From contig CM022675.1 of the NCBI GenBank assembly GCA_012295275.1, positions 9,052,001 to 9,116,000 on the forward strand: a DNA stretch of 64,000 nucleotides. The letters are read 5' to 3'. A program made the translations under genes and the position numbers. Shown here piece after piece: positions 17,201 to 63,638 of the stretch. Within the stretch, counting starts at the first letter, position 1, and the number at the start of each line of letters is the position of its first letter. A model generated the notes under the pieces. It saw nothing but the letters and a program-made list of their open reading frames with translations, made no database searches and had not been told where the DNA came from. Source of the stretch: Chrysomallon squamiferum. Its lineage: Eukaryota; Animalia; Mollusca.

Positions 17201-23783
<6,583 letters not shown>

Positions 23784-35956: not shown

Positions 35957-36027
35957 CAAAATGCATTATTTTAAACATTTTAAATATTTTAAACACTTTT
36001 AAAAACGTCAAATGTTTCAACATCGTT

Positions 36028-41087: not shown

Positions 41088-41128
<41 letters not shown>

Positions 41129-43474
41129 ATATAATTTAAAAAGAAGAAAAAGAAAGACACACACATTTAAAAGATCCTTTGTTACAAATAACAACAGCAT
41201 AGTTTATTCATAAATAATATATCCTGGTACCTAACAGTTTCTTTTCCTTTAAATGGTATTACTACAAACAAACAGATACACTGTAATGCTATAAAAATAT
41301 TTTATGGTGCTATAAAAAAAAAAAAAAAAAAACCCAAAACCATTTAAATTATTACAGTACTAGATAAAAAAATATATATATAAAAATTTCAAGCTCCTAA
41401 TTAACAAAATTAAGAAGATATGATTTACTATTTATTATTTTTTTATTTTAATTTTTTCAAAGTCTAATCAAAGTTAGCTGGCAAAAGTAGGAACTTTTGA
41501 ATCGCTGTTTCTTGTCTGGACTCACCTTTCATCATCTGAATCTACCAGTCTCTTCAATTTTGAAGATTTTTTCTTCTTTTTCTTCGAAGCTGATTTTATT
41601 TCTTCATTTTCATTTTCAACAACATCATCCAGTAGAGACAAACTTAAAAATAATACTAATAATAATAATAAATAAACATAATTGAAAAAAAAAATAAAAA
41701 TAGATACACATTTACAAATGTGGAAGACACCTCACGTAAAACAGCACAGTTTATTCTTAAATAATATAACCTGATATCTGTTTCTTTTCCTTTAAATAGT
41801 ATTATTACAAACAAACATACCTTCTAATGCTTAATATAATAGGTATATCAGATAATACTAATCTTCTTAAAAAAAAATTTTGAAAAAGTAATCAAAGTTA
41901 TTCTGAAAAATAAGGAATATTTGAATCACTGTTTGCTGTTTTGGCTCACCTTTCATCATCTGAATCGATGACTCTCTTCAATTTTGAAGATTTTTTGTTC
42001 TTTTTCTTTGAAGCTGATTTTATTTCTTCATTTTCACTTTCAACAACAGTTGATGTGTTTTCATCATCCATTGGAGACAATCTGAAATAATAAAAAATAA
42101 AAAAATAAAAAAATAAAACTAATTTAAAAAAAAAATAATTAAAAAAATAAATAAGACACACACACAGACATACAGACAAAGCCAGACAACGCCAGACAGA
42201 CACAGATTTGCAGATACTGAAGTTAACAGGTTCAGTCATCTTTTATAATCAAAATGTTTACAAGAAGTTCAAAATAAAAAATCTTAAAATAGCAAAAAAA
42301 ATCCTTCCCTTGTCCTACACCATGTACTAATAACTGGAATCAGCAACTTTTTTTTTAACCCTTCTTCAGTCAAGGTCACACAAGGGATATTACACTCCCC
42401 CCACCAAAAAGGTCTTAACTGACCATTTTAGCAATCTCAGAATCTAATATAGGTTAAGGAACAGATAAATAGACATCAATTCATTCATATTTTAACCTTG
42501 GATGTTTTTCTGCTCTATCCAGAGAATCCGAATCTCTTCTTTTTCGTTTTCCTTCTTTTCTTTTCTTCAACAACGTCTGCAACATCTTCCTTCGCTCTTC
42601 CGATTTTTTCTTCTTTGATTCTTTCTCTTTCCTTTCGTCTGCTTTTCGTTTCTTGTCATTTTTCTTGTTTTTTTCAGAATCGTTGCGAGATTTTTTCGCT
42701 TTTGTCTTTTTTATTGTTTTAATTTTAATTTTTTCTGCTGTGACTGGTTCTCCTGACTCATCAAGGACAAGACCGTCTGCCACATTTCTCAGATCTGTCA
42801 CAGACAAATCTGTTGGAATTCTCCAAAATGCTTCCTGGAAGTAAGTAAACAACATTTCATAATAAATAAATAAATATTACTTTGCAGTTATTATATTTAC
42901 ATTTATATATATACATACTCTTGAAATTATTTTCTAGGTCTCAAAACCATTATGAAAGAAGGAAAGAAAAGAAAGAAAGATACAGCAAAAATTAAAAGAA
43001 AGAAAGAAAATGTAAAAATTAAATAAAATTTAGAAAAAAAAAAATAAAAACACAAACAAATAATATACTAAATATTACCAAAAAACTCCTAATAAAATTT
43101 AAATTATATTTTATTAATTAGTTAATTATTATATTATGATTTTTAGGAACAAATCAACATATTTTAATGTTAATGATATTTTGTGAAAATAGTACAGTGA
43201 TGCATTTAATATAAATAAATGAATAAAGGCATGATACAGAAGCCTGGAGCATTGCTGGAATGGGAAATACATTATTATATTACATTATATTAAATTATGT
43301 TATGCTATGCTATGCTATGCTATGCTATATTATATTATATTATATTATAGTCACCTGTTCATTTGATGGTGGTGAAAGACCAATCATCTGCAAAAAGTCT
43401 GTAAAAACTGAGTCCTCCATTGCAGTTTCATTTTCATCTGATAAGGGTACTATTGGTATTGGTACCAATATACC

Positions 43475-43539
<65 letters not shown>

Positions 43540-45986
43540 AATTCAATTAAAATATTCTGTTAAAGCACAATGTCAAATATCCAATGATTACATCTATAAT
43601 TCTATAATATGTATGTCATAAAACAAATTTTTCCTCTTAATTCCAAAACCTTGTAACTGTAAAATAAAGTTTACTAATGAAGATTACTTATATTTGATTC
43701 CAAATTTGAATTCTTTAACCAAAAAGGAGTCATGTGTTTTTTTTTAATAGTTTATTGACAGAGATTATTTTTATTTCATTTTAAATGTGATCTCTAGTTT
43801 ATTTTTCTAATAGTTTATTTCATACAGGTTACTTACATTTGATTCTACATTAATGTGAACAGACTTCGATGGTTTATTATTAAAAATTAAAAATTAAAAA
43901 AAACACTGTAAAATAAATTCTGCAGACTTAATAATAAAGTAAAACATCTCCATCCATGCTTTTGATTTTTTTTAACAGTCTAAAGAATTTTTTTAATTCT
44001 CCTAGGCTATATTTCCATCATGGAATATCCAAACATTTCATAAAAAAAATTTAAAATTTTTAAAATTAATTTTTATTTTAAGACCCCAAATGGCTATGGA
44101 AAATGTTTAGACACTATTTTTTGCCTTGTCTCTGTTATTTTCTTAAATTCTCAGGCTTCTAACAGATATTTCAGTATTTCATGATTTACCGTCCTTCTCT
44201 CTATCATCAGCAGCTCTTCTCAGTTTTGTCTGAATCCAGCCTATTGGACCTCTGTAACCTTTCCCTACAACGTTCCTGATGCAGTCTGCAGCACTGGATG
44301 TTGGAATTATCTGTCCTGACACATCATCATCGTTGTCGCTGTTGTCATCACTAGAAGGAACATCGTCATCACCATCATCACCGTCTTTGTCACTTTTGTC
44401 TAAAAAAATTAGTAATTGAAATTTAGGGGTAAAATTTGTTATATGAAAAACAGGACATAACATCAGTTCCTTGCAATAAGGAAGTATAAAAGAAAAAGAA
44501 AAACAATAAGAAAATTGTTCTTATGTTACAAAAATAGATAAGAAAGTTAAGGCACACACAAAAGTGAGACTGTAGTATATATTTAGTGAATAAATAAATA
44601 AACAAATAACTATACAAACAAGTACCTAAATAAATATAAATAAACAAATATACAACAAACAAGTACCTAAATAAATAAAGCTAAGTAAATACACAATTTA
44701 AAAGATAAACAACAAATTCATTACATTTTAAGTAAAACTTTTCCATTTAAAAAATAACTGATTAAAATTTTTTTTCAAAGTAATTTTAAAGTTTTTATAC
44801 TTTCTAACATCTTGACAAATTTATTTTTTAATTAACTTATAAAATAAATGTTATTTTTGAACAATGAATTAAATAATAATAATAAGAATAATAATAATAA
44901 TAAGAATAATAATAACAACAATAATAACAGTAAATAATTTCTTTAAAAATGAAAACAATATAAATAATAATTATAACAAATCAATAAAACCTAAAACAAG
45001 TTTTTAAAACAAACAAAAAAATCTTACCACTATCATCATTATCTCCTTTCACAATGAATCCATCTCCTTCATCATACCCATCACCATCATCATCATCAAC
45101 ATCATCATTCTCATCATCACTGCCTTTTTTCTTGCCACGTCGCTTTTTGTACAATTCAGACTTATCCTGGACTAGGCCTGAACTAAGTAATTTTTCAATA
45201 ATTTTATTTTTCGACCTTTTGTGACTGAGTTCGGCTAAAATATTACCAACAGGGTCTGAAATTTGAAAGAATAAAGGTTGAAAAAATAAATAAAATTTAA
45301 AAAAAATGAATGTTTAAGAACATGTATGGCACATTTTAGCTTTCCAGGTATATAGTTTTACACATTTAGTCTATTCTGTTTAAATAAAAGTTTATTATTG
45401 TTGTTGTTGTTGTTATGAATTGTTGAAGTGTTAGTGGTGTATTTCATCCATATTAATGAAATATCATCATCTTCATTTTTAGTGGTTTTTATTATATTAT
45501 TATTGTTGTTGTTGTTATTATTATTATTACTGTTATTATATTATTTTTGTTATTATTACTACTTTTATTAATGTTTTTGTTCTTATGATTGCTGTTGTAT
45601 AATGTTATTGTTATTGTTAATATTACTGTAATTTTTATTGTTGCTGTTTTTATTACTATTATTATTATTGTGGTTATTATCATTATTATTGTTGTTATTA
45701 TTATTATTATTATTATTACTGATACTCTTGTTATTGTTGTCAATATTATTACTGTGATTATTATTCTTGCTATTGTTTTTCTTATTATTATCTTTATGGA
45801 TCCTGTTGTTACTATTATTATTATTAAGTTATTAGGTATCAGCTATTTATTCAAGAAAAGTTCTGAACAACAAACAGTACACTGATAAATGACGTGTAAG
45901 TATTTTACCAGCAGAGTTTTTGTGAGTTTCATACAAATCTGCCAGCTCAAATTCTTCTTCTTCTGTCCATGTTTTAGATGAGCTGA

Positions 45987-46033
<47 letters not shown>

Positions 46034-46286
46034 TAGCAATAATAATATTAATAACAGTAATAATAAGTAAAAATAGTAATAATAACAATAAGAACAATAA
46101 AAAAATATTTAATAATAATAATAATAATAACAGTAGTAAAGTAGTAATAATGATAATAATAATAATGATAATATTAATAATAAAATGGTAATAATAATAA
46201 TAATAGTAATAGGTAATAACAATTATAATAATAACACCTGTAAAAGTTTAAAATTAAAAAAATAGTAAGATTAATGATATTATTAA

Positions 46287-46320
<34 letters not shown>

Positions 46321-49300
46321 GTAATAATAAGAATAGTTGTAATATTAACAATAAAGTAAAATTAATGGTATTAATAATAACAGTAATACAATACATGCAT
46401 TTATGACTGTATGTAAGTTGAAGTTTTGTATGTTCTGATAAATTCAGATACACTTATAATTATCTTTTGTATGTGTAGGTATCTGCTATGTACACATTTA
46501 ATAACATACACTCATGTTTGTTTGTTCTGTCTCTATTGCTGAAAATATACACTATTTGATTACTGACAAATTTGCAATAACACTTAATAACAAAAAGTAT
46601 ATCATTTTGTCAATTTCTCACATTCTGTATAGAACAAAAATCCACATATAACATTATATTTGAGAGGCGAAGCTGATAATTTCCCACATTTTCAGCCAAA
46701 CAAACTCTTGTAATACTTAAACCAACGAACAATAACGAAACCACTTTACAGCGAAAACGCACATCGTGTCCAACATCTTGTACTGGATTTCAATTTTGAT
46801 ACAAGTACACCCATTAACAAGTTGTTTGCAATTATCTGTCTCTTAACCTTTGGGGTGCAACATTTGGCTTGTATTAAATTAAAACAACCGGTTTATGTAA
46901 GAGATTCAAGCACTGAGTGAACGTAACAGGGTTTTTTTTAAACGTAATTTCAGAGTCAAGCACTGAATAAGCAACTATGTGCGTATCATTTTCTTGAATC
47001 AAATTCGACAACTTCCCAGATTCTTCAACAAAACAAGTACTTGTGATACTTAATGCAACTAAATAAAACTAGAACCTACTTGATATGATATACAAATGGA
47101 TGAAGGAAAAAATGTTCTTATGTTGAAGAGATTTTAAAGTATAAATAAACAACTAAATAACACACTGCATATTCTCTGATGGTTGTTTCAATTGTTTATT
47201 ATGTTTCCCATACTTCAAAATTTATTTTATTTATATCTTGCTGAAATTATTACTATTTTCATACAACTGTTGATTTTTTTTTTTTTTTTTCCTTTTTCTT
47301 TTAACCTCATCATTTTCAATAATTTTATTAATATTATTATACATTTAGACACTATACTTTCTAATGTGTTTTATTTATATCTGACCAAAATTTTAAATTT
47401 TCATGCCTTTGTTTAATTTCTTTCTTATTAATTTTTGTTTATTTTAACCTGACAGTTTTTTTTAAATTAATTAACAAAAGAAAAATAATTTTAATGATCT
47501 CAACGTACATTGTTGTTTTTTTCTTTTTCAGATCTTTTGCACTGGAAATAAGGTTCAGTCTCTTCAGCTCACAAATAATTTGACCTCGACGTTTGGTGGG
47601 ATCAGTGAAGCGTTCCATGATCAAATCAACCGTGTCCTTCTCTGAAAATGAAGATTAGTCAAAACAAATTTAAAAATAAAATGAAAGTAAATAAATTAAA
47701 AATTTTGTTTTAAATAAAATCTGATAGAAAACAATTTTTTGAATACAGAAATTATTAATATGTATTTTATTTATATAAATAGTGAATAATTCTATAAAAA
47801 TAATTATTATTATTTGTTTTATTATATCCCCATAATTTATGGGCAAAAATTTTAAAACAATTTTTGAAAAAAAAAATAAAAATAAATAAATCGTCAAATT
47901 TTCTTAAAACAGATATTTACTTAATTTACAAAAAAAATTAGATGGTGCTAAATAAACATCTTTAAAAAAATATATATTATTATACGTATTTTGTTTTTAT
48001 AAATATTCTAAAACCAAGATTTAATATTCTTCCAATCATTGTTAAACATAATTTAATTAATATTTTGAAATAAACAACAACCCCCAACCCAAAAAAAGAA
48101 AAAAATTAAAGAAAAAAAAAAAGGATGGTTAAAAACATATATGAAAACAGAAACACATGACAGACATTCATAATCAGACACACAACAGACATACATAATC
48201 ACAGACACATATTTACATGTCATACCAGGATCTTCGCTGTCTCTGAACATTTCAAATAAATGTAGAAGTTCCTCTTCCTGGTCTTCTGTCCAAGTGCTTT
48301 TTGACTTGCTGCTGTTAAACACAATTAAAACAATCTCTGTAACACATTTTATAATCTTTACCCTCTTTCCAGTTCCAACAAGAGCTCCTTAGTATAACTG
48401 AAGGCAAAATTAAGTGTTTTTCTGAGATAATATTACACTATTTTTATTTGCTAATAACAGTCTCAATAACACCTTTTATAAGCTGTATAATTATTCGAAT
48501 TCCAATGGAGACAAATTGAAGTCAAACTTTAGTGCTTTTCTGGGATAATATTAAATAATGTTTATTGTCGAAAAAAATAATTTGTGAAATGGTGGTCATA
48601 TTGTTAATTCTGATTGATCCACAGGACTTTTCCCATTCTAAACTGAACTCCAAGTCTGAAGTAATGCTTTCTTCTTTATAAAAGATATAAAGGATCATGT
48701 TACTAATCCACTAATCCACTAATCCACATCTGTTACTGGAATGATAACAAGTGTCATCAGTCTTGATTAACTCTCCGATATATTTCCCGTTCCAACCTAC
48801 TTGAGACTGATAATATCAAGTAGCCATGTCATTTTAACAAAATTAAGGATAAAATTTATAACAAAAGAGAAAGAATTAAAAATATTTAAAAAATAATAAA
48901 AACGAAAATTTCAAGTCATCGAAGACAATTATTTTTAACTTGGAACTTGTACAACTTTTCTTCATTTTTTTTTTTTCTGAAATATTTTTGTTTCCTGTAA
49001 TTTTACAGGATTCCGAATAAATTTTAAGATGAAGTTTTGTTTATAATGAATAAAATTTTTACCTGAAAGATCCATATCCATCTGTGAGTTCTAGTGATTC
49101 CTTTTTACCTTTCCAAAACAACATCTCCATGAATATTTTCTTGTTTGCCTCAGCTATTTCAGTAAACTTGCGAATTATGTATGTCGCAAACCTCGCTAGT
49201 TCCTGTAAATAAATAAACAATAATAACTGTTATTATTATTATTATTTAAATAAAATAAATAAATAAATAACTAAATAAATAATAATAATAAATAAATATA

Positions 49301-50347
49301 AATAAATAAATAATAAATAATTGTTATTATTATTATTATTCTAAATAAATAATAAAACTTGTATTAGAACAACAACTACTACTACTACTTAATAATAATA
49401 ATAATTAATAAATAAATATATAAATAAATAACAGTAATAATAACAAATTTAAAAAATAACAATAATAAAATAAAAACTAGACAAACTTTTTTTAAATTTA
49501 ATATAGATAATTTTTCAATAAATAATAAAAAATATTTAAAATTAAAAAATAATTTTTAAAAAAAAAATCTATAATAATTAGTAATATTAATATTTAAAAA
49601 GAAACAAATATTTTAACAGTAAATAAAAACAAAGTCCTGAATAATGAAACCAATAATTATAATATCAACAATGAATCAAAAAAAAAAAAAAAAAAAAAAT
49701 AAAAAAACTCCTTCCCCAATAAAAAAGAAATCAAGATTTGCTTCAGACTCTAAAATTAAAAAGATATGCTAAAAATCATTTACCATTTTAATACATTGTC
49801 TATTAATTAAATAATTCTCGAATTTTTTATTTTTTTTATTTTAAAAGTCCAACAGGAAAAAGGTAAGTCTCAATTACCTGATAGTGTTTCATTTTAGCGT
49901 AAGGTCCAAGCAAAACTTTCTGAAAAACTCGGAAAATGGAAGCCTGGAATATCATCGCAGGATAGCCAAGGTCCACTGCAATTCGATGTAGCATTTTCAA
50001 AACACAGTGGTTTGTGTGAATCGAGTTTTTCTCAAAATCAGCCAGCAGCAAAGCGTAAGATTTCAAAATGTCTCCTTTGGCAAAGCTGAGGATAAAAGGT
50101 TAAATTTTAAAACAGAAGGAATAAAAGGTAAAAATAAAATTAAAATAAATGTTGTAAAAAAAAAAAAAAAAAAAATAGAAAGGTAAAGGATGGAGATTGT
50201 TAAATGTGGATATGATTTCAGTATGATAGCAATAGTAAAAATAGCTAAGATAATTCCTAAAAACAAGATTTAGGATAGGGGAAACAGAGGAACACCAAAA
50301 GCAAGAAGAAAAGGGGAAAAAAAAAATATATAAATAAATAATAAATA

Positions 50348-50388
<41 letters not shown>

Positions 50389-50402
50389 AATGAGTCAATT
50401 AT

Positions 50403-50472
<70 letters not shown>

Positions 50473-51001
50473 TAATGGAACACAATTCTTTTCACCATTT
50501 CATTTCATTATTTACAACACAATTTAGCCATTCACAAATTACACTTAATAAACATTATGAATCATACTTTTTAATTATTATTTTATTTAAAAAAAAATCT
50601 ATATAATTAGTAAAAGATTAGTAATAAACTACTAACGGCCTCCTTGCACACAGAAAAATGACCCCAATTATCAAGTACTGTTACACAACAACCATTAGGA
50701 TTGGTCTGAAATCATTAATCTTTTTAAATAAAAGCTTTTCAACATGATGAAGTGTCTTTAAGTATCATACTGTGGGATCACTGCCCCCATCTTGATTCCC
50801 TGTCTTTGTTATTTTAATCACTCTATTCCTTTCCTGCCATTTTGTAAGATTATAAAGAATTTTGATGTTTGTCCATTTTGAGAGCCACTGATATTTGAAT
50901 CACTATTTATTTGAATGGTTTAACTCATGAATAATTAATTAACTGAAATAATAATAATAATGATGATATGGATAATAACAATAATAATTATATATATATA
51001 T

Positions 51002-51046
<45 letters not shown>

Positions 51047-52005
51047 GATGTTAATATAAAAAGTAAATATACTTGTAAAATTATTCGTATTTTTTTTATT
51101 TCTTATAAGACACCTAAATATATGTTTCATACTGAAATGGTTTTAAATATATATATTTATTTCATTGTTGTAAAGTTTTAACAGAGAAAATATTGAAAAA
51201 TAATAATCTATCTGTGTAAAAAGATTTTCAAATTAAATGATTTTTTTTTGGTTTGTTAATTACAACATATATTAATATTTCTGTTACAAGTATCATTGTT
51301 ATTACTCAAAATTTATTATTAGTACAGTTTTGGTGGATAAATTATTTAAAAATAATAACTTACTTGTGTAGAAAGGTTTTAAAATCAAATGACTGCTCAC
51401 TAGTACACACTGATTCAATTTCTTCTTCTTCAACTAAAATAAAATAAATTTTTTATTTTACAATGATTTTTGAAAATATATTATTATGGGTGTTTGGGGT
51501 TATGTTTCGCTTTTTGTTTTTGTGTGTACATGGGTGTGTGAGAGATTTTATTTATGAATAAAATATTTATAAAAAAAAATAATTCATGAAGACGAATTAA
51601 ATCTAAAAAAAATGAAAGAAAAGAAAAATATAAAATTAATTTGATTTTTCATATTAAAATAAATATATAAAAATATAAAAAAAATAAAATAATATATAAA
51701 AATAATAATAAAAAATAATAATAATAATAAAAATAATAATAAATAAATTAATTAATTAATTAATTAATATTTCACCTTCATTTTCTATTTCCTCTTCTTC
51801 CAGTCCTACTGATGCCTCAACTTGAGAATTTGGTCCTAAAAAAATATTTTTAAATTACAAACTAATTAACAAGGTTTATTTAAGACTTAAATCCAATATT
51901 GTTTTATCAATTACATCCATACCAAGTAACACAAAAAACAAAGAAAGAAAATGAAAGGTATAGACTGAAACTATCTCTCTCTCTCTCTCTCACAGAGAGA
52001 GAGAG

Positions 52006-52064
<59 letters not shown>

Positions 52065-52445
52065 CTTAGAATTTTGAGAAAATCTTTCATTTTTATTACT
52101 ATTCTTCATTCTATCCAGTTTTTTATGAAAATGTTAACAAAACAAGAGAGAGATAAAACTGAAAGACAGAAAAGGAACACAGACACACAATTATACACAA
52201 CAATTATTTATTAAGAATTTTGCTATTTATTTTGGTATGTGACTACTTAACGATTTTATTATTCACTATAACAGTACTGTATGAATAACAAGAAAATGTT
52301 TTTAAACAAATACATTTGTATGTGTGGGTGTGTATATATAATACATACAGTGATACACACCTATTTATTTAACACATAGCTACTGCCATTCTTTTAAACA
52401 AAACCAAAATAACTGGATGAAAACAATTCTGTAATATTTTAATAC

Positions 52446-52476
<31 letters not shown>

Positions 52477-53194
52477 TATTAATACTATCATCTGCTATCA
52501 AAGTGGCATAGAAAATTAGTTTGTGGTTCATATGAGTTATTCTTTTATAATACTGAATGATGGATTTTAAAACTGATTGAAAGTGAAGAAAAAAAGAAAA
52601 AAAAACAACAAAAAAAACAACAACATATGGACAGAAATGTAATAAAAAGGTGGATTTTCAGAAATTGTATTTAATTTAATTTTAAAAAAAAAACAATTTC
52701 CCCTCACCATGAGGGTGTCTTTAAGGTGGATTTTAAGACCCCTCCCATCCCTCAACACTAAAGGTGTCTTTCTGAAAAATTAATGTACAGAGATTTTAAG
52801 AACTGTGAGTTTTTCTGCAACTGACTGTCAGTCAAAATGTGTCATTAACTTATAATTTCCTGCATCCTTTTGCTTCTACAAATCACTAAGAACGTTTTCC
52901 TGTCTCGGGTAATTAAAAGGCAGGATGAAGGGTCAAGCACATCGAGTAACATGCGAGTTTATTAAACAGGTTATTATTCTTAATAAAGACAAAATAATAA
53001 CGTTTGTTTTGTTCAGAGTATTAGAAAGGCAGGAAATTAAGTCAGGAGAGAGGAAGAGAAAGAGAGACAAAAAAATAAAAAATAAAAAATAAAAAATAAA
53101 AATAAAATGAAGACAAAGAAGTTGAAAATAATCGAGGGAAGCTGAAAAGACAGAAAGATTGTCTTTGTTGTCTGAGTGAGAGAAAGACTGTGTC

Positions 53195-53269
<75 letters not shown>

Positions 53270-56200
53270 AAGACATGCAGCAGAAAAATTGTGTGTAAAA
53301 AAAAGAGGAAAAGAAAAGAAAAAACAGAAAAAGCATTTCAAAGTAAATCTGAAGTGTTTTTTCTATTTACAATTCTTGAGTGAAAACACTTGAGTTATAA
53401 TTAGATTTATTAATCAATGCAATACGAGAGTAGGTGGGTGTGTCTGCACACGACAAATACTTCAGAGGTACAAACAAACAAACACAGATTTAAAGAAAAA
53501 TGTTATAGAAAATACATGACATTTATTGCTATTTAAAAAAACAAAGTAAATAAAAAAATAAACTAAAATACAAATAATAAATAAATCAAATCAAGATAAA
53601 TAAATAAATAAATAAATAAATATATATATATAATAAAAATATTTAAAAAAAATTAAAACACATCTTTTTTGAAGCATTAGGAAAAATTTCTTCTTCTTTT
53701 GTTTTAACCAAGTATTTCTTATCTGTTATGAAACAATAAATTATTCTTACAAACAAGTCTCAGGCTTTAACCTACTTTAAGAAAGAAAAGAAAAAAAAAA
53801 AAAAAAAAAAAAAAAAATATTAGTACTGAGGGACTAACATCCTGCCCGGCCTGAAATTCATCATGTTAAGTAGCTCGTTCCTGATTTGTTAATTCATAAA
53901 CATTTAGAGTCATGTGACCACTCACTGATCAATCAAAACGTACCAATGTTGAGGGGAATGTGCAACAGAGGAAGTCTGCATTCAAAGTGTTATAGAAAAT
54001 TAGTTTGTGACGGATGTGAAATATTCTTTATGATACTGAATGCTGGATCTTAAAACTGTGTGGTTAGAAAAGTGAAAAAAAAAAAAGAAAAAAAAAAAAC
54101 TTATGGACAGAAATGTAACAAAAGGTGGATTTTAAGAAATTCTTAAAATCTTTTACTGATTTTTTATTGTTATATATATATATAAAGATTAAAACAAAAC
54201 TGTGAAAGGATTACAAAGCAAAAACGGATAAAAGGAAGTTGTAAGTGAAAATTTATTTGAAATCTCCTATTTTAAAGATAAAATTATTTATGATATGTTA
54301 ATATATTGAACAAAAGTGTGGAGTGAGATCTGTTTTGATTTTCTGTACATGTATTCTTTGGATTAAAAGAATAGAAGAAAAACATGAAGATAATTTCCTC
54401 AACCATGGAGGTGAATCTTCAGGTGGTTGTCATATTTTTTTTTATCTGTGTTGTATGTGTGTCTGGTTGTCCTGAAATATGTACATGCTCAAACAAAAAG
54501 GTGAACTGTTACGGAAAACAACTTCGTGAAATTCCAAAAGATATCCCAGGTGACACAATGACTCTTGATCTCAGGAATAACAAAATCGACCACATAGATC
54601 CATCCAGCTTTAAGAACCTTGAGAAGCTTAACGAACTCCTACTCAAGTACAACGAGATTACTTCCCTCGAACCAGGAACATTCAAGTACCTGAAAAACCT
54701 CAAAAACATCGACCTGGGAACCAACAGCATTAAAGTGATCAAGCCTGGAGTGTTCAGTGGTTTGGTGAACCTCAAAGGAATGGACCTGTCTGAGAATTTT
54801 ATCGTTGACATCAACGATTCTTTCCAGAATCTTCCGCTTTTGGAAAGACTGGATCTTGGCAACAACCAGATAAAGTCAATCAATGGAATGGCGTTCAATG
54901 ATCTGAAGAATCTCATCTACCTTGTTATTCCTAAGAACAACATAACAAAAATCGACAGATTCGTCTTCAGGCCTCTTCAGAAACTCTCCTCGATCATTCT
55001 GACGAAAAATCCACTGAAAAACGCCAATGCCATCTTTGCAAGAAATCGCCTGCTTGCCTACATTGATTTAACAGACTGTGCCTTGACACGAATTCCAACG
55101 AAGCTTCCCGCGTCTGTGCAGTATCTGCAACTTCGTAACAACAACATAACACGAATAAGGAAAAATGCTTTTGCTAAAAACAGGCTTTTGGGCATTCTCG
55201 TCCTTGACCAGAACCAGATCAGTGTTATTGAGAAAGGTGCTTTCAGCTCACTGAAGTTTCTTCAGGAGCTTTGGCTGAATGACAACAGACTGAAAGAATT
55301 TCCATCTCCTCTTCCGCTCTCTGTAAAATCAGTTTATCTTTCCAAAAATAAAATCAATGCAGTCTCCAAAGACGATTTTCCAGTCGATTCGCAACTCAAA
55401 AAACTCTCGCTAAAAAGCAATGAAATAACCGATTTAAAACCAAACACATTTCAGGAACTGAAAAATCTACAAATACTCTTCCTAAATCAAAATAAAATCT
55501 CTAATCTGAAAAATCTAACATTTGCCGGTCTCAATCAGCTCTCTAACCTGACACTAAGTAAAAACTTCTTAACAAATATTGAGAAAGATGCTTTCCTTGG
55601 GTTACAGTCGCTGGCTGAATTACAGCTTGCCTTCATTCCTGAAGTGGACCCTCCGATGAAAATTCACGGGAATATTTTTTCAAATATTCCAAACGTAACC
55701 TTCATAGATTTGCAGTTCAGTCCATCACTTGCGCGTGAGGCAGTTACATCAGACATGCTTTCTGCTCTTCCAAAACTCGTGGAAATCAACCTCATGGACA
55801 ACAATTTGAAAACCATGAGTCCAGAAATGGAGACGTACATGGAAAATGTCACAGCTATAAAAATTGCAGGTAACGAATGGCACTGTGACCAGAATCTTCT
55901 CTTTTTGAAAAAATGGATCAAGAAAAATCCTAGAAGATTTTTTCTATTCAGTCAGATTTTTTGTTCGTCGCCTGACAGTTTACGAGGAAAGAGAATTATC
56001 AAGTTAGAAGATGACGAGTTTGTTGCTGTTACTCAGTTTCCACAACAAACAACGTCTGCAACAACTACAGTACCAACTCGAGCTACTACCACCACCAGGA
56101 AAACAAAAGTTAAGAAATCAACAACAAAAAGAAGCATTCCAACGACTAAAATGTCCACACAGAAAGTTTCGACATACAAAACAACTCCGATGAAAGCTAA

Positions 56201-57073
56201 ATATACCAGTACAGTTCCAACCACAAAGGTTACCATGGTATCCAAGATGATGAACCAAACCAGAAGTGATGAAAGAGGAACAACTGTGAAAATTTACACA
56301 AGAAAACTTTACATGAAAACAACCATGCCAACAAAAGGAAGGCCAAAATCAGCCACAACAGGAAGTACCACAACTTATGGAATAAATTCTAATGTTACTG
56401 ACAACAACAACAACAACAAAACAGAATCATTTTCAACAAGCAAAGAAGAAGAAACAACGAAAAACGTCTCATCAAAAGCCACAGTTGAAAACACATCTAA
56501 CAGCACAGGAAAGAAAATGTTTGACACCGTCCCCGAAATTGGTGGAGGGAAAAAACAAGACGACGAAGAAATCAACAGCAACTCGACGAAACAAGAAGAG
56601 CTATCTCCCGAAGAGGGCAAGACAAAACCCCCAGGAAACCACAACACAAAGATAGCTGTCATAGCGACGTGTGTGTCCGTGGTTACGATAATCATCGTCA
56701 TCGTGGTAGCTGTTGTGGTGCACAGGCAGTACAGGAAGAACAAGCTGGTGTACCACAGGGCGCTGCAGTATCGCCAAGACTACACCAACGTGACTTTCTT
56801 CGTGGGCGAACCAGTAAACACCAACAACGAAACCGATCTCATAACAAAACCTAAACCCAGAAAACGGTCAGACCGTGGGTTCGACCTCATCAACAACTAA
56901 GGAAGACATCACTAACGAACTGGACCAGACAATGAAAGTGTACTCTTGGGATGATGACAAATAGAGTTGAGTCCCTTTTTGCTGATAATTATATAAAAAA
57001 AAAATCGACCGTGCCTCTTAACAAATGGAGAGTAGAATTATATCTCATTATAAAGATCTGATTAATGAAATTG

Positions 57074-57107
<34 letters not shown>

Positions 57108-58895
57108 AAAATGGAATTTATCATCGTTAATAGAGAAATGTAACAAATAATGACAAAATTATTTCCAAATGTTATTTGATATGACACAGTTATGTCCTTT
57201 GATATGACTACTGAAGTTATTTCCCATAAGACTTACATGGAGTTATTGTTCTTGTTATGTCCACATTGCATACCATGAAATGACTAAAGAAACTGTTTAC
57301 AAAGTAATGGACTATTCATTAGGAACCTGACTGTTAAAATAAATGTAAGAAGTTATAAGACAGAATTTTTATGGTCAGTATTGTTATATAATTACTGCAT
57401 CAACTAATTTTATTTTTTTAAATTATTGTTTCTTGAACTGTACTGCCAATAGTATTTAAAAGATACTGATAAATATGAAAACTTCTAATGCACAAACAGT
57501 GATTAACTGTCTATTACCATCTTTTAGGTATTTTATTGTACTGATACCCTGTAAATACAAGAGTCTGTTGATGTGTCTGTGTGTTTTATGTATGTTTGTT
57601 ATTAAATTCTGATTAGAGTTATTTAAAATAGTATTTCATATTAATAACTAATATGTAGTTAGTGATACATCTTTGTTATAAATATTTATCATTGAACAGT
57701 TCAGCTTTTATATTGCTGATACTGTTAAGATATATAATGAGTCAGTATATAATATGAATTTCTATAGACCTTTCTGTACCTAACGGTTACCTCAAATTAA
57801 TTTTAAACTGTTTTTAAATATGAATTTGTATTCTGAACATCTGAATTTATTATTTTTTTTATTTTATTTATTTATTATTTTTTTGTCTAAAGCATCTCTT
57901 TCATGCATGTGTGTGTATATATCTATAGTACATAGCTTACTGTCTATGTTAGATATTTATAGAACATTTCATTAATTTTTAATATTAATTATTAATCTGA
58001 ACTGAACATCTATATTTTATTTATTTATTTATTTATTTATTCATTCATTTATTTAGTTATTGTTTTAGGATCTTAGTAGTTTTTAATCTGCCACCAAATT
58101 GTATATGGATATTTTTGATTTTTTTCTAGTAACATTTTATAATGTATTAAATTCAAATATCCCCTTTCTACTTTTTTCGGTAAATCCTGATCTGGATATA
58201 TTAAGAATAAAATTACTGTGAAGAATTTCATTAGAAATTTTATTATTCTTCTGATTATTTTTATATTTACTCTAGTCAATAAACATTTATTTCAACAAAT
58301 TTCAAAACTCTAAAAAAACATTTTTTAAATTAATTTTTTAATGATTTCCCTGCTGATATATTTTATTTATTTTCTTAATTATCTGTGTATAAATACTGTG
58401 AATATGTATTTTCCATAAAATAAATATATTTTATTCTTTTAAATTTTTTGTTTTGTATGTTTATATCTCTATGAATATCAGCATATTTATATAAAAAGTT
58501 TTTATTTAATTTATAAATGGATGCATATATGTTTGCTTACTGCATGGATGGATGGATGGATGGATGGATGAATGGACAGAAACAGAAATCCTTCAGAATG
58601 GATGTATGCATTTGTATCTGCAACAATTTATTTCTATCTACATATTTAAAACTAATTTTAAAATGTTTTCCAACTGTAACAGAATAACAAAAATAATTTA
58701 TTTAATAAATGTGTCATATAAATTTCTTATAAAATAATAAATAACCTACTTGGTAAGTTTGTCATGAAAATTTCTTATAAAAGAATAAATAACCTACTTG
58801 GTAAGTTTGTCATGAAAATTTCTCTAAGAGCCATGAACTCATCTTCTGGAGTAATGTCTGACTTTCCAAAGTCATCTCTTTCAGGCCATACTTCT

Positions 58896-58966
<71 letters not shown>

Positions 58967-61900
58967 TAATAAAAATAATAATAGTAATAATAATAAAAAT
59001 AAAAATAATAATAATAATAATAATAATAACAATAACAATAATAATAATAAAAATAATAATAATAATAATGAATAACAATAATAATAATAGTAATACTAAT
59101 ACTAGTACTAATAATATTAATATAATAATAATGATAAATGTAATAATAAATGTAATAATTGTAACAGTAATAGCAATAACAATAAGAATTGTAAGAATAT
59201 TAATTGTAATAACAATATAATGATGATGATGACAAAAGTAATAACAGTTACAATAACAATAATGACAATAATGACTGTAGTAGTAGTAGTAGTAATAATA
59301 ATAATAATAGTAATAAAAATAATAATAGTATCAGTAGTAAGAATAACAGTAATAACAATAACAACAAAAATAACAACAAACCTGGCTGCCCTAAGTAAAG
59401 CCACGCCCTCCCCAGTCCTGTGACCCCTCAGTGCATCCTGTATGTTTATCATGGCTGCAGCTCTAAAGAATATTTTAATAATAAGAAATTTAATTCTGAT
59501 TACAAAACTAACAGCAAACACATTATTCTGGATTATGAATTTAACTCATAAATGATAGAGATCTCATCGTTGTACAAGCATTTTAATAATAACATATTAT
59601 AAGTTTTTATAGGAAGGAACAGTTTTGTGTTGAATATAACTGAAAGATTGAAGATATAAAAAATATTGTTGCAGAACAAAAACAGACTCAAAAACCCCAG
59701 CTGTAACTCTTTATAAAACTTAAAACTCCAGATTTTGTGTACCATATTTTGAAATTTGTGACATAAATGAATTTATTTTTTTAATAATACCCACCTTTGT
59801 TGATCATCATCTACTTCTGATGCAGCATCAAAAGGTGTAATATCAGTTGGTATCTCACTGTGGCCTTGAATAAGGGCAGATAACTCATCTGAAATCTGGT
59901 CCCAGGATTCCTCGAGTTCTTGTTCCGAAGGTTCATTTGTCTGGTTCTTTGTTTCTGTGAGGAATATAAGATTTTAAATGATAATCTATGTTACTGTTAA
60001 GGTTCCATGTATAATAAAAGTTGCTCTGTACACCAGGTGTGATAAGAAAAAAAAAAAACATATTTTAAATTTATATCTTTAAAATACATGAATAAAATCT
60101 AAGCAGGGATCAGTTATCCTTTCATTTATAAGCAATATTTAATTTTAAGAAATTTTAATATACTGACAACAGATATTTTAAGAGCATGAATTGGAATGGG
60201 ATTTCTTCTTTTCTTTTTTTTTTCTTATCAAAAATTATCTGAACACTAATAATCTGTTTTTCAAATTAAATATTAATTTCTTACTTTCATACTTTTTTAA
60301 TTTCACACTTTATATTTTTTTAATTTTATTCTTTATTTTTTTAATTGTATACTTTTACTTTTTTATTTTCATATTATTAATTTTTTTTTTTAAATATTAT
60401 ACTTCAACTTTTTATCTTCATACTTTTATTTATTTATTTTTTAATTTCATACTTTTATTATTTTTCTTCTTTTTAATCTTCCTCTTCTGCTGAACGACTA
60501 AGTGTGTTTGTCGTGAAAGCTGATCTAACATTCTGAGAAACAAGTGAGTCGACTCAACAAGATCTTTGAGATACGACCTGAAGGAAAAAAATCATAAATA
60601 TTTAACAAAATATTAACATATCTGATAATAATGGAAAATCTAGCAACTCTCTTTAATCCAATATTTACAACATAGGTAATTTACATATAGTGCATGTATG
60701 CATGCATATATGTATATACATATAAATGTATGCATAAAAATATGTATGTGTGTACATTTGTATGTATGTATGAATGAATGAATCAAATCAATGTGTGTAT
60801 CTTGGCATATGTGCTTTGTGTTTGTCTATGTATGTTTATCTATATAATTATGTGTGTCTTTTTACAACAATCAAGTAATATCAGTGGTTACTCAAAAAGT
60901 TCTGAATAAATTAAACATTAACCATTTTAATAAGCTAATAATATATATTTTGAAAAATGGTTCCCATATGCATTATGAAGATTTACCTGGACTGTTTAGT
61001 TTGGTTGAATCTTTTGAGCAAAGTCACAAAAATATCTCGAAACTCCATCATGTAAAATATGTTGCCTTGAAACAAAAATAAAAGAAATAAAATAAAAGAA
61101 ATAAAACTAAATAAAATAATAAAACATAGATCGATAAAAATTAAAATTTTTTTAATATTTTAAAAAATATATATATATATATATATATATATTATTTAAA
61201 TAATTGAAAATATTAATAAAAAGAATAAGACAAAATTATTTTCACATTTTTAAATTTATTTCACATTTATTTATTTAAAATCTGGCACATCCGTCTCAAA
61301 AGATCAAAAATTAAAATAAAATAAAAGCATCTTAAATAGAACAAAAACAGCCAATCAGATGCAAGCTTACTTTTGATAACTTTGGAAGATTCCATTAGCT
61401 GTGGGTTTTTGGATCGATCCATCATGTCAAGGGTTAGCAGCAGCTCCTGGTAAGCTTTCAAGGCAAGATGGACTCTTAAAAATAATTAAATTGAATACAA
61501 ATAAAATAACTGACTAGTAAAATAGAGGATAAGCTGTGATGAAACCTTAATACCAGCTACTCAGTATTTTATATAGTTGAGATTATTTATTAAGTCAACA
61601 TTCAGAAAACAAACTTATATGAAATAAACTAACTTTATAAAACAAATTAAAAAAACACAGTATATATATATATATATCTCTGTGTGTGTGTGTGTGTACA
61701 CACATACACACACAGTACATGTATATCAAAAATTAAAACTAATTTAAAACACTGATACAATAGCAGGGAACAATATTCAGCCAATATATATTCTTGTAGA
61801 ACTATTTACAATGGCAATCATTTTAAATTATGTATATATTTTTTGTGGACAAACCCAGAATATACTCTCTTGATTAGCAAAAATTAAAACTGATTTAAAA

Positions 61901-63638
61901 TACTAATACAAAAGTCAGGGGAAATAACTGGTCAGTATATACATATAGAACTAATTAAGATTGAAGCAGATTTAAAACTTGAAGTTTGAATTCTAAAATA
62001 CCTTTTACTCCACGTAACTGCTTCTTTTTTCTCTGACATAATCATCTCGTAATATGTCAAGAGGTTGTTGTAGATGTAGTGAAATGTCGTAATGGACAAT
62101 GTCTCACTGAAAATTTTTATATTTTAAAATATGTCAATAATTCAATTAAACTTATTGCAAAGGTTAAATATCAATTTTCTTTCAGTGTGAAAAATAAATA
62201 TATATTCAGCAACAGCAGACAGTTTATTTTTTTATTTATTTTAAAGATCTTTTGTTATTGTTTTTATTTTATCCCTTTTTTGTTTTTTTTTAAATAATGT
62301 AAATAAATTTGGTCTATTTAAGAACCTTAAAAATTATTTTGATTTCTTATTTTTAAATTCTAGTAAATCAACAAAAATTTGTGGAACAAATCATCTTGTA
62401 CACAATGTAGTCAGGGGAGATAAATCAGTACCTGACAAGATCAACTCTTTTGCTATGAAGACGACAAAACTCCATGAAGAAGCGCATGGCCCACAAGTAA
62501 TATGTCTCATCGTGATCCTGGGTCTTTTCTCTCACCAGATTATCCTGTTTGAAAAAAAAAAAATTAAATTTTAAATTATGTTTTTATTACAGAATATTAA
62601 CAAATTACCCTGAGATTTAAAATAAAATCATAATAACAGAATCATGACAGCATCCTAGTATTTTTAAAATGTATCTTCTTTTTTTACTTTGTTATTGATT
62701 AAAATATCTTGATAAAAAAATATAACAAAATTAGTACACAGAATATATTTAGACTACTTCAGCATGTATCAACAGGCACACTTTAAGAATTTTTTTATTA
62801 AATACATTTTAAAACAAACTAAAAATTCACAAGTAATTTATATATATATTTTTTTAAATCTCACCTTCACAGCAAACATGAGAGGGTTGTAGCAGTTTTC
62901 CAAAACTGTACAATGAATTCTTTGAGACAAAGTCTAATGCTAAGAGTCGAACGCCGATGAACTTCTGTGTCTTTGATAGGTGCTAAGTGTTTGGCCTTCT
63001 TGTGGTATTTCTTGTTGAAGTCGAGGGACAGGTTCTCTATGTCTCCCTGTGACTTGTGGTAAATCATATCTTTGTCACTGATCGACTTCATATTGACTAC
63101 AACATACGTGCCTCCAAACCTAGAATGCCTGGTAAGCAAAAAAAATAAATAAATAAATAAATAAATAAATAAAATATTTAATAAATAATTAAAAAAATAT
63201 TTGTGTGTGTGTGTGTGTATATATATATATTATTTTAAATACAAAACCAAAAATAAATTGCCAATAACCAAATCAAGAATGTCTGGCAATAAAATTTTAA
63301 AATTTATTATTTTAAATACAAATATATGTCAGAGGCAACTTAGAAAATAAAAAGTAAATAAAGGAAAAACAGAAAAATCAAAACGTAATATCTGAATAAA
63401 TGAGAGAAATGCTAGTCTGTTTTTCTCTGCTTCTCATTTTTTAATTTCCTTATCTTTTCTGAGTGTCCTTCTTTTCCTAAAATTTTGTAATCTCCACTTC
63501 ATTATATAAAATATTGAAAATTTTGAAAATGTCTTGTACTTCAATATAAAAAAGAAATAATTAATGTACCTTGTATTGTGTTTCAGCATGTTCATCTTTC
63601 TCTCTCTTTGTTCCTTTAACCGAACTCGTTCCAGTTCT
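36028..63638 (-). CDS. TIMELESS: Protein timeless homolog (TIM2/Timeout, replication fork protection complex subunit), 5'-partial, 30 exons in window
   Basis: Hand-spliced GT-AG exons: 63570-63638, 62865-63128, 62432-62544, 62002-62106, 61371-61474, 60987-61065, 60453-60577, 59795-59954, 59382-59462, 58798-58895, 51776-51835, 51364-51433, 49878-50085, 49063-49202, 48226-48311, 47509-47641, 45909-45982, 45028-45255, 44190-44399, 43355-43473, 42497-42834, 41950-42081, 41526-41642, 40961-41077, 40408-40524, 39479-39595, 38930-39061, 37877-38014, 36479-37204, 36028-36152. Phases join consistently except for two 1-bp breaks (~62903, ~36622). Peptides match vertebrate TIMELESS as recalled: [93 protein letters not shown], acidic C-terminus RKCIESDDDDD*. 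Confidence 0.95.
36480..37105 (-). repeat. 30-bp coding minisatellite (SEGHTQDKSD-type decapeptide, ~20 units) in the penultimate TIMELESS exon
   Basis: Plus-strand unit gaccttcactatcactcttatcttgagtat. ORF 36619..37191 reads (SEGHxxDKSD)n, bounded by an acceptor at 37205 and a GTAAGT donor at 36478. Confidence 0.85.
38880..42160 (-). repeat. TIMELESS: Tandem exon-plus-intron duplication array in TIMELESS: six intact symmetric phase-2 exons (132,117,117,117,117,132 bp) plus one exon-less unit
   Basis: Near-identical exons at 41950-42081, 41526-41642, 40961-41077, 40408-40524, 39479-39595 and 38930-39061. Each encodes ..IKSASKKKNKKSSKLKR(V/L)(I/V)DSDDE with a GTGA donor. The flanking intron sequence repeats with a ~400-570 bp unit. 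Confidence 0.92.
42497..44399 (-). CDS. TIMELESS: TIMELESS exons encoding the PARP1-binding (PAB) domain and basic tail
   Basis: Exons 44190-44399, 43355-43473 and 42497-42834 give [40 protein letters not shown]...PPSNEQEAFWRIPTDLSVTDLR, which aligns with the recalled human PAB domain. Confidence 0.88.
49878..50085 (-). CDS. TIMELESS: TIMELESS exon ([39 protein letters not shown]...)
   Basis: Canonical splice sites, phase 2 to 0. Matches the conserved NSxHTNHCxxKMLHRxAxDL block. Confidence 0.92.
54384..56900 (+). CDS. Single-coding-exon leucine-rich-repeat type I transmembrane protein (2mit-like architecture), nested antisense in a TIMELESS intron
   Basis: 838-aa ORF with a signal peptide (MEVNLQVVVIFFFICVVCVSG), LRRNT (CPEICTCSNKKVNC), ~16-17 LxxLxLxxNxI repeats and an LRRCT-like cap (GNEWHCD...IFCSSP). 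These are followed by a Thr/Lys-rich stalk, a TM helix (IAVIATCVSVVTIIIVIVVAVVV) and a Tyr-containing cytoplasmic tail. It lies within TIMELESS intron 51836-58797. Confidence 0.93.
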   Translation: MKIISSTMEVNLQVVVIFFFICVVCVSGCPEICTCSNKKVNCYGKQLREIPKDIPGDTMTLDLRNNKIDHIDPSSFKNLEKLNELLLKYNEITSLEPGTFKYLKNLKNIDLGTNSIKVIKPGVFSGLVNLKGMDLSENFIVDINDSFQNLPLLERLDLGNNQIKSINGMAFNDLKNLIYLVIPKNNITKIDRFVFRPLQKLSSIILTKNPLKNANAIFARNRLLAYIDLTDCALTRIPTKLPASVQYLQLRNNNITRIRKNAFAKNRLLGILVLDQNQISVIEKGAFSSLKFLQELWLNDNRLKEFPSPLPLSVKSVYLSKNKINAVSKDDFPVDSQLKKLSLKSNEITDLKPNTFQELKNLQILFLNQNKISNLKNLTFAGLNQLSNLTLSKNFLTNIEKDAFLGLQSLAELQLAFIPEVDPPMKIHGNIFSNIPNVTFIDLQFSPSLAREAVTSDMLSALPKLVEINLMDNNLKTMSPEMETYMENVTAIKIAGNEWHCDQNLLFLKKWIKKNPRRFFLFSQIFCSSPDSLRGKRIIKLEDDEFVAVTQFPQQTTSATTTVPTRATTTTRKTKVKKSTTKRSIPTTKMSTQKVSTYKTTPMKAKYTSTVPTTKVTMVSKMMNQTRSDERGTTVKIYTRKLYMKTTMPTKGRPKSATTGSTTTYGINSNVTDNNNNNKTESFSTSKEEETTKNVSSKATVENTSNSTGKKMFDTVPEIGGGKKQDDEEINSNSTKQEELSPEEGKTKPPGNHNTKIAVIATCVSVVTIIIVIVVAVVVHRQYRKNKLVYHRALQYRQDYTNVTFFVGEPVNTNNETDLITKPKPRKRSDRGFDLINN
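58720..58823. repeat. 48-bp tandem duplication of a TIMELESS exon end plus splice donor
   Basis: aataaataacctacttggtaagtttgtcatgaaaatttc occurs twice, 48 bp apart (aacctac at 58743 and 58791). Confidence 0.9.
62865..63128 (-). CDS. TIMELESS: TIMELESS exon (RHSRFGGTY...), contains an apparent 1-bp deletion
   Basis: AG acceptor at 63129-63130 and GT donor at 62863-62864. ORF track 62867..63139 gives [26 protein letters not shown]...RRSTLSIRLCLKEF. The last 14 codons (LENCYNPLMFAVK) read only after adding one base. Confidence 0.9.

What the first reader, a model, noticed from the sequence alone, without database searches (positions are those of the whole stretch)
51836..58797. TIMELESS hosts an antisense LRR-transmembrane gene: the insect tim2/2mit nesting apparently present in a non-insect lineage
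Seen: a 7-kb intron, by far the largest of this gene in the window, lies between ...MTNLP and RPNSQV... and contains a complete opposite-strand ORF with signal peptide, ~16-17 LRRs, Thr-rich stalk, TM and cytoplasmic tail. Established (from memory): Drosophila timeless2/timeout carries the opposite-strand intronic gene 2mit, a neuronal LRR + Thr-rich + TM protein implicated in behavioural plasticity, with the nesting described in insects. Inference: if this genome is molluscan and the genes are orthologous, the host-nested pair dates to the protostome ancestor. That would imply a very old constraint linking a replication-fork gene and a neural surface receptor, for example shared enhancers or mutually exclusive transcription in proliferating versus post-mitotic cells.
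Basis: partly seen in the sequence, partly recalled or inferred. Interest (0 to 1): 0.85.

Follow-up and report, generated by a model that had tools for sequence, protein, structure and literature searches.

The report
Ancient gene-in-gene pair in a snail
A cell-surface receptor gene lies backwards inside an intron of the DNA-replication gene TIMELESS in what is likely a snail, at the same intron position that holds the giant, gene-bearing intron of bees, ants and wasps, so this pairing, published only for insects as far as my searches reached, likely predates the split of molluscs and arthropods.

Summary
Confirmed. A 6,962-nt phase-1 intron of a minus-strand TIMELESS (timeout type) holds a plus-strand, single-coding-exon gene: signal peptide, 19 LRR strands, Thr-rich stalk, TM helix, tail. 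One correction: the 838-aa ORF is cut short by a one-base error in the window; the likely protein has 859 aa. Its nearest named relatives are from abalone and limpet, so the animal is likely a gastropod. Key result: the exons before the host intron measure 81 and 98 nt, as do those before the largest timeout intron (66-179 kb) in 10 of 10 hymenopteran gene models I analysed; published work puts 2mit, or a nested gene, in that intron. The protein belongs to a mollusc-plus-arthropod LRR family with a diverged ant member, likely 2MIT; fly 2MIT itself could not be compared and tree support is weak. The pair is likely ancestral to protostomes but is lost easily: two unnamed related loci have the same intron short and empty. 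A shared-enhancer or mutual-exclusion constraint is untested. This scan noted the same pair before in another genome (non-insect arthropod; unchecked).

The parts
51836..58797 (-). TIMELESS host intron, 6,962 nt, phase 1, near human residue 655
   Evidence: same position as the hymenopteran giant intron
59795..59954 (-). TIMELESS exon, 160 nt (160 nt in Apis florea; 136-169 in the other nine models)
59382..59462 (-). TIMELESS exon, 81 nt (81 nt in 10 of 10 hymenopteran models)
58798..58895 (-). TIMELESS exon, 98 nt, directly 5' of the host intron (98 nt in 10 of 10 hymenopteran models)
51776..51835 (-). TIMELESS exon, 60 nt, directly 3' of the host intron
51364..51433 (-). TIMELESS exon, 70 nt
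49878..50085 (-). TIMELESS exon, 208 nt, matches human 696-762
36000..63638 (-). TIMELESS gene, the part inside the window (5' exons lie beyond 64000; 3' end approximate)
54384..56964 (+). Nested LRR-transmembrane gene, coding region in one exon; likely 859 aa once the one-base error near 56877 is allowed for; a second ATG at 54405 may be the real start
54468..56020 (+). LRRNT cap, 19 LRR strands and two-Cys LRRCT cap (about residues 29-545, pLDDT mostly over 90)
56034..56651 (+). Thr/Ser-rich stalk (206 aa, 23% Thr, 33% Ser+Thr; low pLDDT)
56652..56726 (+). Predicted transmembrane helix (about residues 757-781)
56727..56964 (+). Cytoplasmic tail; the conserved end (..EDITNE..KVYSWD..) is out of frame in the window and in frame in runs X1 and X6

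Best explanation
A single-pass LRR surface-protein gene lies on the opposite strand inside a TIMELESS intron whose position matches the gene-bearing giant intron of hymenopteran timeout, and it is likely the molluscan counterpart of insect 2mit, inherited in place from the common ancestor of molluscs and arthropods. Shown: nesting, orientation, architecture, intron position, and membership of a mollusc-plus-arthropod family. Inferred: the gene entered an already existing intron once (the same intron exists empty elsewhere); it stays mainly by inertia, because a break between the partners would cut an essential host gene, helped in some lineages by its own enhancers filling the intron; it leaves only by transposition or loss, as in Lepidoptera. 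The two proteins likely do not work together: TIMELESS acts at the replication fork, and the nested protein likely acts as a neural adhesion or recognition receptor, binding through its LRR horseshoe on a glycosylated stalk and signalling or trafficking through a conserved tail.
For: Exons of 81 and 98 nt precede the largest intron in 10 of 10 hymenopteran models analysed; phase 1 in 9 of 10 (the tenth model is 5'-partial); codon 640-690 in those nine. An insect timeout sequence printed in the same supplement gives 26 and 32 whole codons for these exons, as in the window (my count by eye). PMC3786989 puts bee 2mit in tim2 intron 14, opposite strand; the giant intron is number 14 in 5 of 10 models, 13 in 3, 15 in Apis florea, 8 in the partial one. 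PMC3936262 reports a nested gene in all its hymenopterans, Tribolium and Drosophila, in intron 10 of Ceratosolen, which is the giant intron if counted from the low-coordinate end. Family: named members in Haliotis, Patella, Pecten, Pomacea, barnacles, spiders, Limulus, myriapods and decapods. Ant P0367 is hit at E 9e-29, 46% over the diagnostic repeats, and scores 310 bits as one domain on a family HMM built without insects, against at most 230 for non-family proteins. RNA-library contigs of one study cover most of the ORF.
Against: No Drosophila or Apis 2MIT sequence could be compared (File S1 unreadable), so that P0367 is 2MIT is inferred, and its genomic place is unknown. Three trees placed it differently: with chaoptin-like outgroups (SH 82), unresolved, sister to 8 non-insect arthropod members (86/67, not starred). 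The stored protein set was gathered with this family, which favours family hits. Fly 2MIT is described with 16 LRRs, a helical N-cap and a four-Cys C-cap; the window protein has a Cys N-cap and two Cys in the C-cap. 0 of 35 metagenome loci (25 of them TIMELESS) held a family gene, and the two that show this intron have it short and empty. No second mollusc locus was seen. Splicing across the intron was not shown in RNA.
Confidence: 0.8

Rival explanations
1. Independent insertion: unrelated or distantly related LRR genes entered the same TIMELESS intron separately in insects and in this mollusc lineage.
For: LRR-stalk-TM genes are numerous and often have one coding exon (general knowledge). 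The ant protein is only 28% identical to the window protein and does not group with the molluscan clade (AU p 0.033). The same intron is empty in L022 and L017.
Against: It needs the same intron out of more than 20, the same orientation and the same architecture twice. The intron is otherwise short (671 and about 470 nt), so it is no obvious target. The only insect family member found comes from the order in which the nesting is reported. An ant protein outside the molluscan clade is what orthology predicts.
Confidence: 0.1
2. Active regulatory coupling: the pair is kept by selection because host and guest share enhancers or exclude each other's transcription (dividing versus post-mitotic cells).
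For: About 550 million years of retention (date from general knowledge); giant introns of 66-179 kb in Hymenoptera; a fly insertion 20 kb upstream of 2mit, inside the intron, lowers 2mit mRNA (PMC3786989).
Against: That insertion left tim2 mRNA normal, and the authors found no functional link. The nesting is missing in several arthropods. The intron here is only 7 kb, with about 2.4 kb upstream of the first RNA-contig cover.
Confidence: 0.2
3. Assembly artefact or dead copy: the ORF is mis-joined into the intron, or is a pseudogene.
For: The window has indel errors, one in this ORF and one in a TIMELESS exon. No laid contig spans guest and host exon together.
Against: The ORF break is absent in both runs that cover it. 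The protein is 56% identical over 99% of its length to an intact homologue. A mis-join would not pick the intron that hosts the gene in insects.
Confidence: 0.02

Closest known systems
Drosophila tim2 (timeout) / 2mit host-nested pair (Baggio et al. 2013, PMC3786989)
   Same: Host of the timeout type; guest on the opposite strand; signal peptide, LRR array, Thr-rich stalk, one TM helix, tail. Bee 2mit is in intron 14, which matches this intron by exon sizes and phase.
   Different: Likely a gastropod, not an insect. Intron 7 kb against tens of kb. 859 aa against 1,141; 19 LRR strands against 16 (18 in bee and moths); Cys-type N-cap, two-Cys C-cap. Position of fly intron 11 not mapped here.
Nested gene in hymenopteran, Tribolium and Drosophila timeout (Gu et al. 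2014, PMC3936262)
   Same: Published exon coordinates put the giant intron after 81- and 98-nt exons, as here.
   Different: The paper calls the guest a putative insulin-growth-factor-binding protein, gives no sequence in the parts I read, and covers arthropods only.
Lrba / Mab21l2 nested pair (as cited in PMC3786989)
   Same: Functionally unrelated host and guest kept nested across animals, with losses in some insects.
   Different: Enhancers in the host intron were demonstrated there; none is shown here. The guest is not a receptor.
Vertebrate LRR genes nested in large introns, such as LRRTM in alpha-catenin and FLRT in MACROD genes (recalled, from no call)
   Same: Neural LRR-TM gene, opposite strand, inside a host intron.
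   Different: Other hosts and other LRR families. Atlas and fold searches gave only generic LRR likeness.

Membership tests
tim2/2mit nested pair | Host is TIMELESS of the timeout (mammalian) type | tested here: met
   Best PDB hits human and worm TIMELESS (62 and 51 bits) over fly-type TIM (32 bits)
tim2/2mit nested pair | Guest wholly inside one host intron, opposite strand | tested here: met
tim2/2mit nested pair | Same host intron as in Hymenoptera (bee intron 14) | tested here: met
   81- and 98-nt exons before the largest intron in 10 of 10 models, phase 1 in 9 of 10; bee intron number
tim2/2mit nested pair | Same host intron as Drosophila intron 11 | not testable with these tools
   No fly exon coordinates in the papers read
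2MIT protein family | Signal peptide, 16-18 LRRs, Thr-rich stalk, single TM, tail | tested here: met
   (19 strands if the one leading into the C-cap is counted)
2MIT protein family | Orthology to fly or bee 2MIT by sequence and tree | tested here: inconclusive
   Only an ant candidate (P0367) was available: similarity favours the family, trees are weak or conflicting; peptides read off fly primers fit any LRR
2MIT protein family | Helical N-cap and four-Cys LRRCT described for fly 2MIT | tested here: not met
   Window protein has a Pfam LRRNT and two Cys in the C-cap; the ant candidate has an atypical N-cap and two Cys. The feature is described for the fly protein only.
2MIT protein family | Neural expression | not testable with these tools
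   RNA-library contigs cover the ORF but show neither tissue nor strand
Toll/TLR, Slit, LGR, LRIG | TIR, EGF/LamG, 7TM or Ig domains | tested here: not met
   Only LRR families in Pfam; fold hits are generic, best TM-score by query 0.46
Genomic regulatory block (guest enhancers in host introns) | Conserved non-coding elements in the host intron that drive the guest | not tested
   No second genome with the filled intron was available

The most novel reading that the evidence does not exclude
TIMELESS plus 2mit is a regulatory block as old as protostomes: an unnamed neural receptor family of molluscs, arthropods and probably annelids, whose spiralian members share a Tyr-x-Trp tail motif, keeps its enhancers inside an essential replication gene, and read-through of that intron separates TIMELESS expression in dividing cells from receptor expression in neurons.
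Probability: 0.2. Interest if true: 0.75.

Novelty: new member of a known kind. Interest (0 to 1): 0.5.

Why it matters
It would move the origin of a published insect gene pair from about 300 million years (PMC3786989) to the mollusc-arthropod split, and it gives the little-studied fly memory gene 2mit likely counterparts in molluscs, where learning circuits are well studied. Because the pair is kept in some lineages and lost in others at a defined intron, it is a natural test of whether old nested pairs persist by enhancer entanglement or by inertia. Ancient nested pairs as such are known, so the kind of system is not new.

Tried and rejected
No whole genome is held for this window. Two word-based homologue searches with the whole protein or its profile were swamped by chaoptin, Toll and Slit; the exhaustive profile search and a region search gave the family. 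From the best 150 I kept the 47 new proteins of at most 1,100 aa and dropped the rest as long multi-repeat proteins. Atlas searches gave only generic LRR clusters; the fold search only generic LRR structures. Family alignments were too diverse for a locus scan; a scan for a TIMELESS motif gave 35 loci, 25 TIMELESS, 0 with a family gene, most too short to tell. Synteny by neighbouring accession numbers failed: no timeout accession was found for the species whose family accession I held, except Limulus, where timeless-m (XP_022243537) is not next to the two of five paralogues looked up. Peptides read off fly 2mit primers were compatible but not diagnostic. One tree run timed out. RNA contigs do not cover about 56,570-57,110, which says nothing either way. 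A splice join across the host intron in RNA remains unshown. No complex prediction was run: no binding claim is made.

Full report
Observation. The window holds most of a TIMELESS gene on the minus strand, from beyond 64,000 to about 36,000. One exon matches human TIMELESS 696-762 at E 5e-16, better than worm TIM-1 and far better than fly-type TIM; another matches 549-598 weakly. Seven exons around the intron in question join into one open frame. The intron runs 51836-58797, is 6,962 nt, GT..AG, phase 1; the other 16 introns measured are 320-1,526 nt. Inside it, on the plus strand, an ORF at 54384-56900 encodes 838 aa with LRRNT and LRR domains. An AlphaFold model shows 19 LRR strands at high confidence, a disordered stalk and one membrane-length helix; the stalk is 23% Thr.

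Correction. The nearest homologue, P0002 (56% identity, 99% coverage), continues in another frame of the window. Of four runs laid, the two that cover the place lack one base at 56877 or 56880. The likely protein is 859 aa and ends in a tail shared with abalone, limpet and scallop relatives. Contigs from two RNA libraries of one study cover about 54,220-56,450; they show no strand and may contain DNA, so this is weak evidence of expression.

Organism. Run names are coded. In the careful tree the protein and P0002 sit with Haliotis and Patella (97/93) inside a nine-member clade whose named members are all molluscs (names). The animal is likely a gastropod. This rests on one gene tree plus the non-insect look of the TIMELESS exons.

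Family. An exhaustive profile search returned, among its best 150, 47 new proteins of at most 1,100 aa that align over the LRR domain. A family HMM scores its own 52 members at 547 bits or more (inflated by self-inclusion) and the best other stored proteins at 230 or less. A region search from a spider member found 66 proteins among 712 candidates: 56 chelicerate, myriapod, crustacean or unnamed members, one ant protein (P0367, Monomorium; E 9e-29, 46%), and nine weaker Slit-like or other hits. P0367 scores 310 bits as one domain on the insect-free HMM, and its first non-family BLAST hit ranks 119th (127 bits against 232 for the best member), in a set that was gathered with this family. Trees are less clear: with chaoptin-like outgroups, unresolved, or sister to the other arthropods at 86/67, with a place among the molluscan members rejected at AU p 0.033. 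All three used LG+G4 without the mixture model. No named deuterostome member turned up, but many members are unnamed. Fly and bee 2MIT could not be compared.

Intron position, the main result. PMC3936262 Table S3 lists timeout exon coordinates for 11 hymenopterans; I analysed 10 and left out Acromyrmex, whose line has a damaged coordinate. In 10 of 10 the largest intron (65.7-178.9 kb) follows exons of 81 and 98 nt; it is phase 1 in 9 of 10, the exception being a 5'-partial model. The window's exons before the host intron are 160, 81 and 98 nt; Apis florea has 160, 81, 98. An insect timeout sequence printed in that supplement has 26 and 32 whole codons over these two exons and aligns residue for residue with the window's (my count). 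PMC3786989 places bee 2mit in tim2 intron 14 on the opposite strand; the giant intron is the 14th in five models, the 13th in three and the 15th in A. florea, whose model begins with a 7-nt exon. PMC3936262 reports a nested transcribed gene in all its hymenopterans, Tribolium and Drosophila, in the tenth intron of Ceratosolen; the giant intron is the tenth from the low-coordinate end, and the tenth from the 5' end is under 1 kb. That the nested gene sits in the giant intron is thus inferred from intron numbers and sizes, not read from a coordinate.

Against universality. A metagenome scan for a TIMELESS motif gave 35 loci; 25 are TIMELESS and none holds a family gene. Most are too short to tell. 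L022, the closest to the window (73% over the 98-nt exon; taxon unknown), has the same phase-1 intron at 671 nt, empty. L017 has it at about 470 nt, empty (by eye). Six crustacean-like loci (L006, L009, L012, L019, L027, L029) and five loci of another type (L007, L011, L013, L015, L033) have no intron at this site. Lepidoptera lack the nesting, and four arthropods in PMC3936262 Table S1 have too little intron DNA to hold it. So the intron is old, and the guest is present in some lineages only.

How it likely works. One early entry of a single-coding-exon LRR gene into an existing intron, before molluscs and arthropods split, explains the shared intron, strand, architecture and family most simply (0.8). 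Retention is likely mostly inertia, since a break between the partners would cut an essential gene, with the guest's own enhancers enlarging the intron in some insects; a fly insertion inside the intron lowered 2mit but not tim2 mRNA. The guest likely acts as a neural recognition receptor: fly 2mit is neural and needed for short-term memory (PMC3786989), and its ectodomain binds axons and other cell surfaces (PMC7252235). Active coupling of the two genes (0.2, not exclusive of ancestry) is untested; independent insertion is left at 0.1.

Literature seen. PMC3786989: abstract, parts 1-2 of 11, passages on orthologues and gene organisation, Table S2; File S1 unreadable. PMC3936262: passages, section 4, supplement parts 1-2 of 13 and passages. 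PMC7252235 and PMC4932443: passages (the latter not relevant). PMC12049834 and its preprint: passages and supplement searches; '2mit' and 'nested' do not occur in the preprint text. PMC8789273: supplement passages and part 6 of 8. Searches listed no paper reporting the pair outside insects; only listings were seen (40 of 121, 15 of 1,517), and the library lacks most subscription journals.

Verdict. It extends a known insect arrangement to a mollusc; it is not a new kind of system, and the proposed constraint is leaky. Interest 0.5.

Noticed in passing
window 17204-21570 (minus strand; further exons probably up to about 33600): Gene downstream of TIMELESS with Pfam SPMIP4-like hits in two exons (PF15093, E 6e-17 and 2e-9); the long ORF 17204-18847 is probably its last exon.
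   Followed up: partly
window 38850-42130 (minus strand): At least five tandem copies of a short Lys/Ser/Asp-rich exon with its flanking intron near the TIMELESS 3' end, and a related exon at 37877-38014. Real exon duplication or assembly effect not tested.
   Followed up: no
window 36400-37204 (minus strand): TIMELESS 3' exon made of 11-residue Ser/Asp/Glu repeats, with a frame change near 36620.
   Followed up: no
window 58739-58834: 48-nt tandem duplication that copies the host intron's donor site; use of the second donor would bring in a stop.
   Followed up: partly
window 52491-52680 and 53975-54150: Diverged duplicate of about 190 nt; the second copy lies just upstream of the nested gene's first RNA cover (local score 217 against at most 118 in 30 shuffles). 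Possibly a relic of a duplicated promoter.
   Followed up: partly
window 62865-63128: TIMELESS exon with a frameshift in a T run, likely a second assembly error.
   Followed up: no
P0002 and P0003: Two family paralogues whose records give the same longest contig length (454,834), so probably tandem copies in a related animal; P0003 has a very short tail.
   Followed up: no
P0005, P0160, P0166, P0170, P0188, P0206 and others: Large unnamed subclade of the family (29 of 52 rows) with a strongly conserved C-terminal end (..GRDINHEGP..VYKWEDF); taxon unknown, annelid is my guess.
   Followed up: partly
L022:1212-1883 and L017:564-1034: The same phase-1 TIMELESS intron, short and without a nested gene.
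   Followed up: yes
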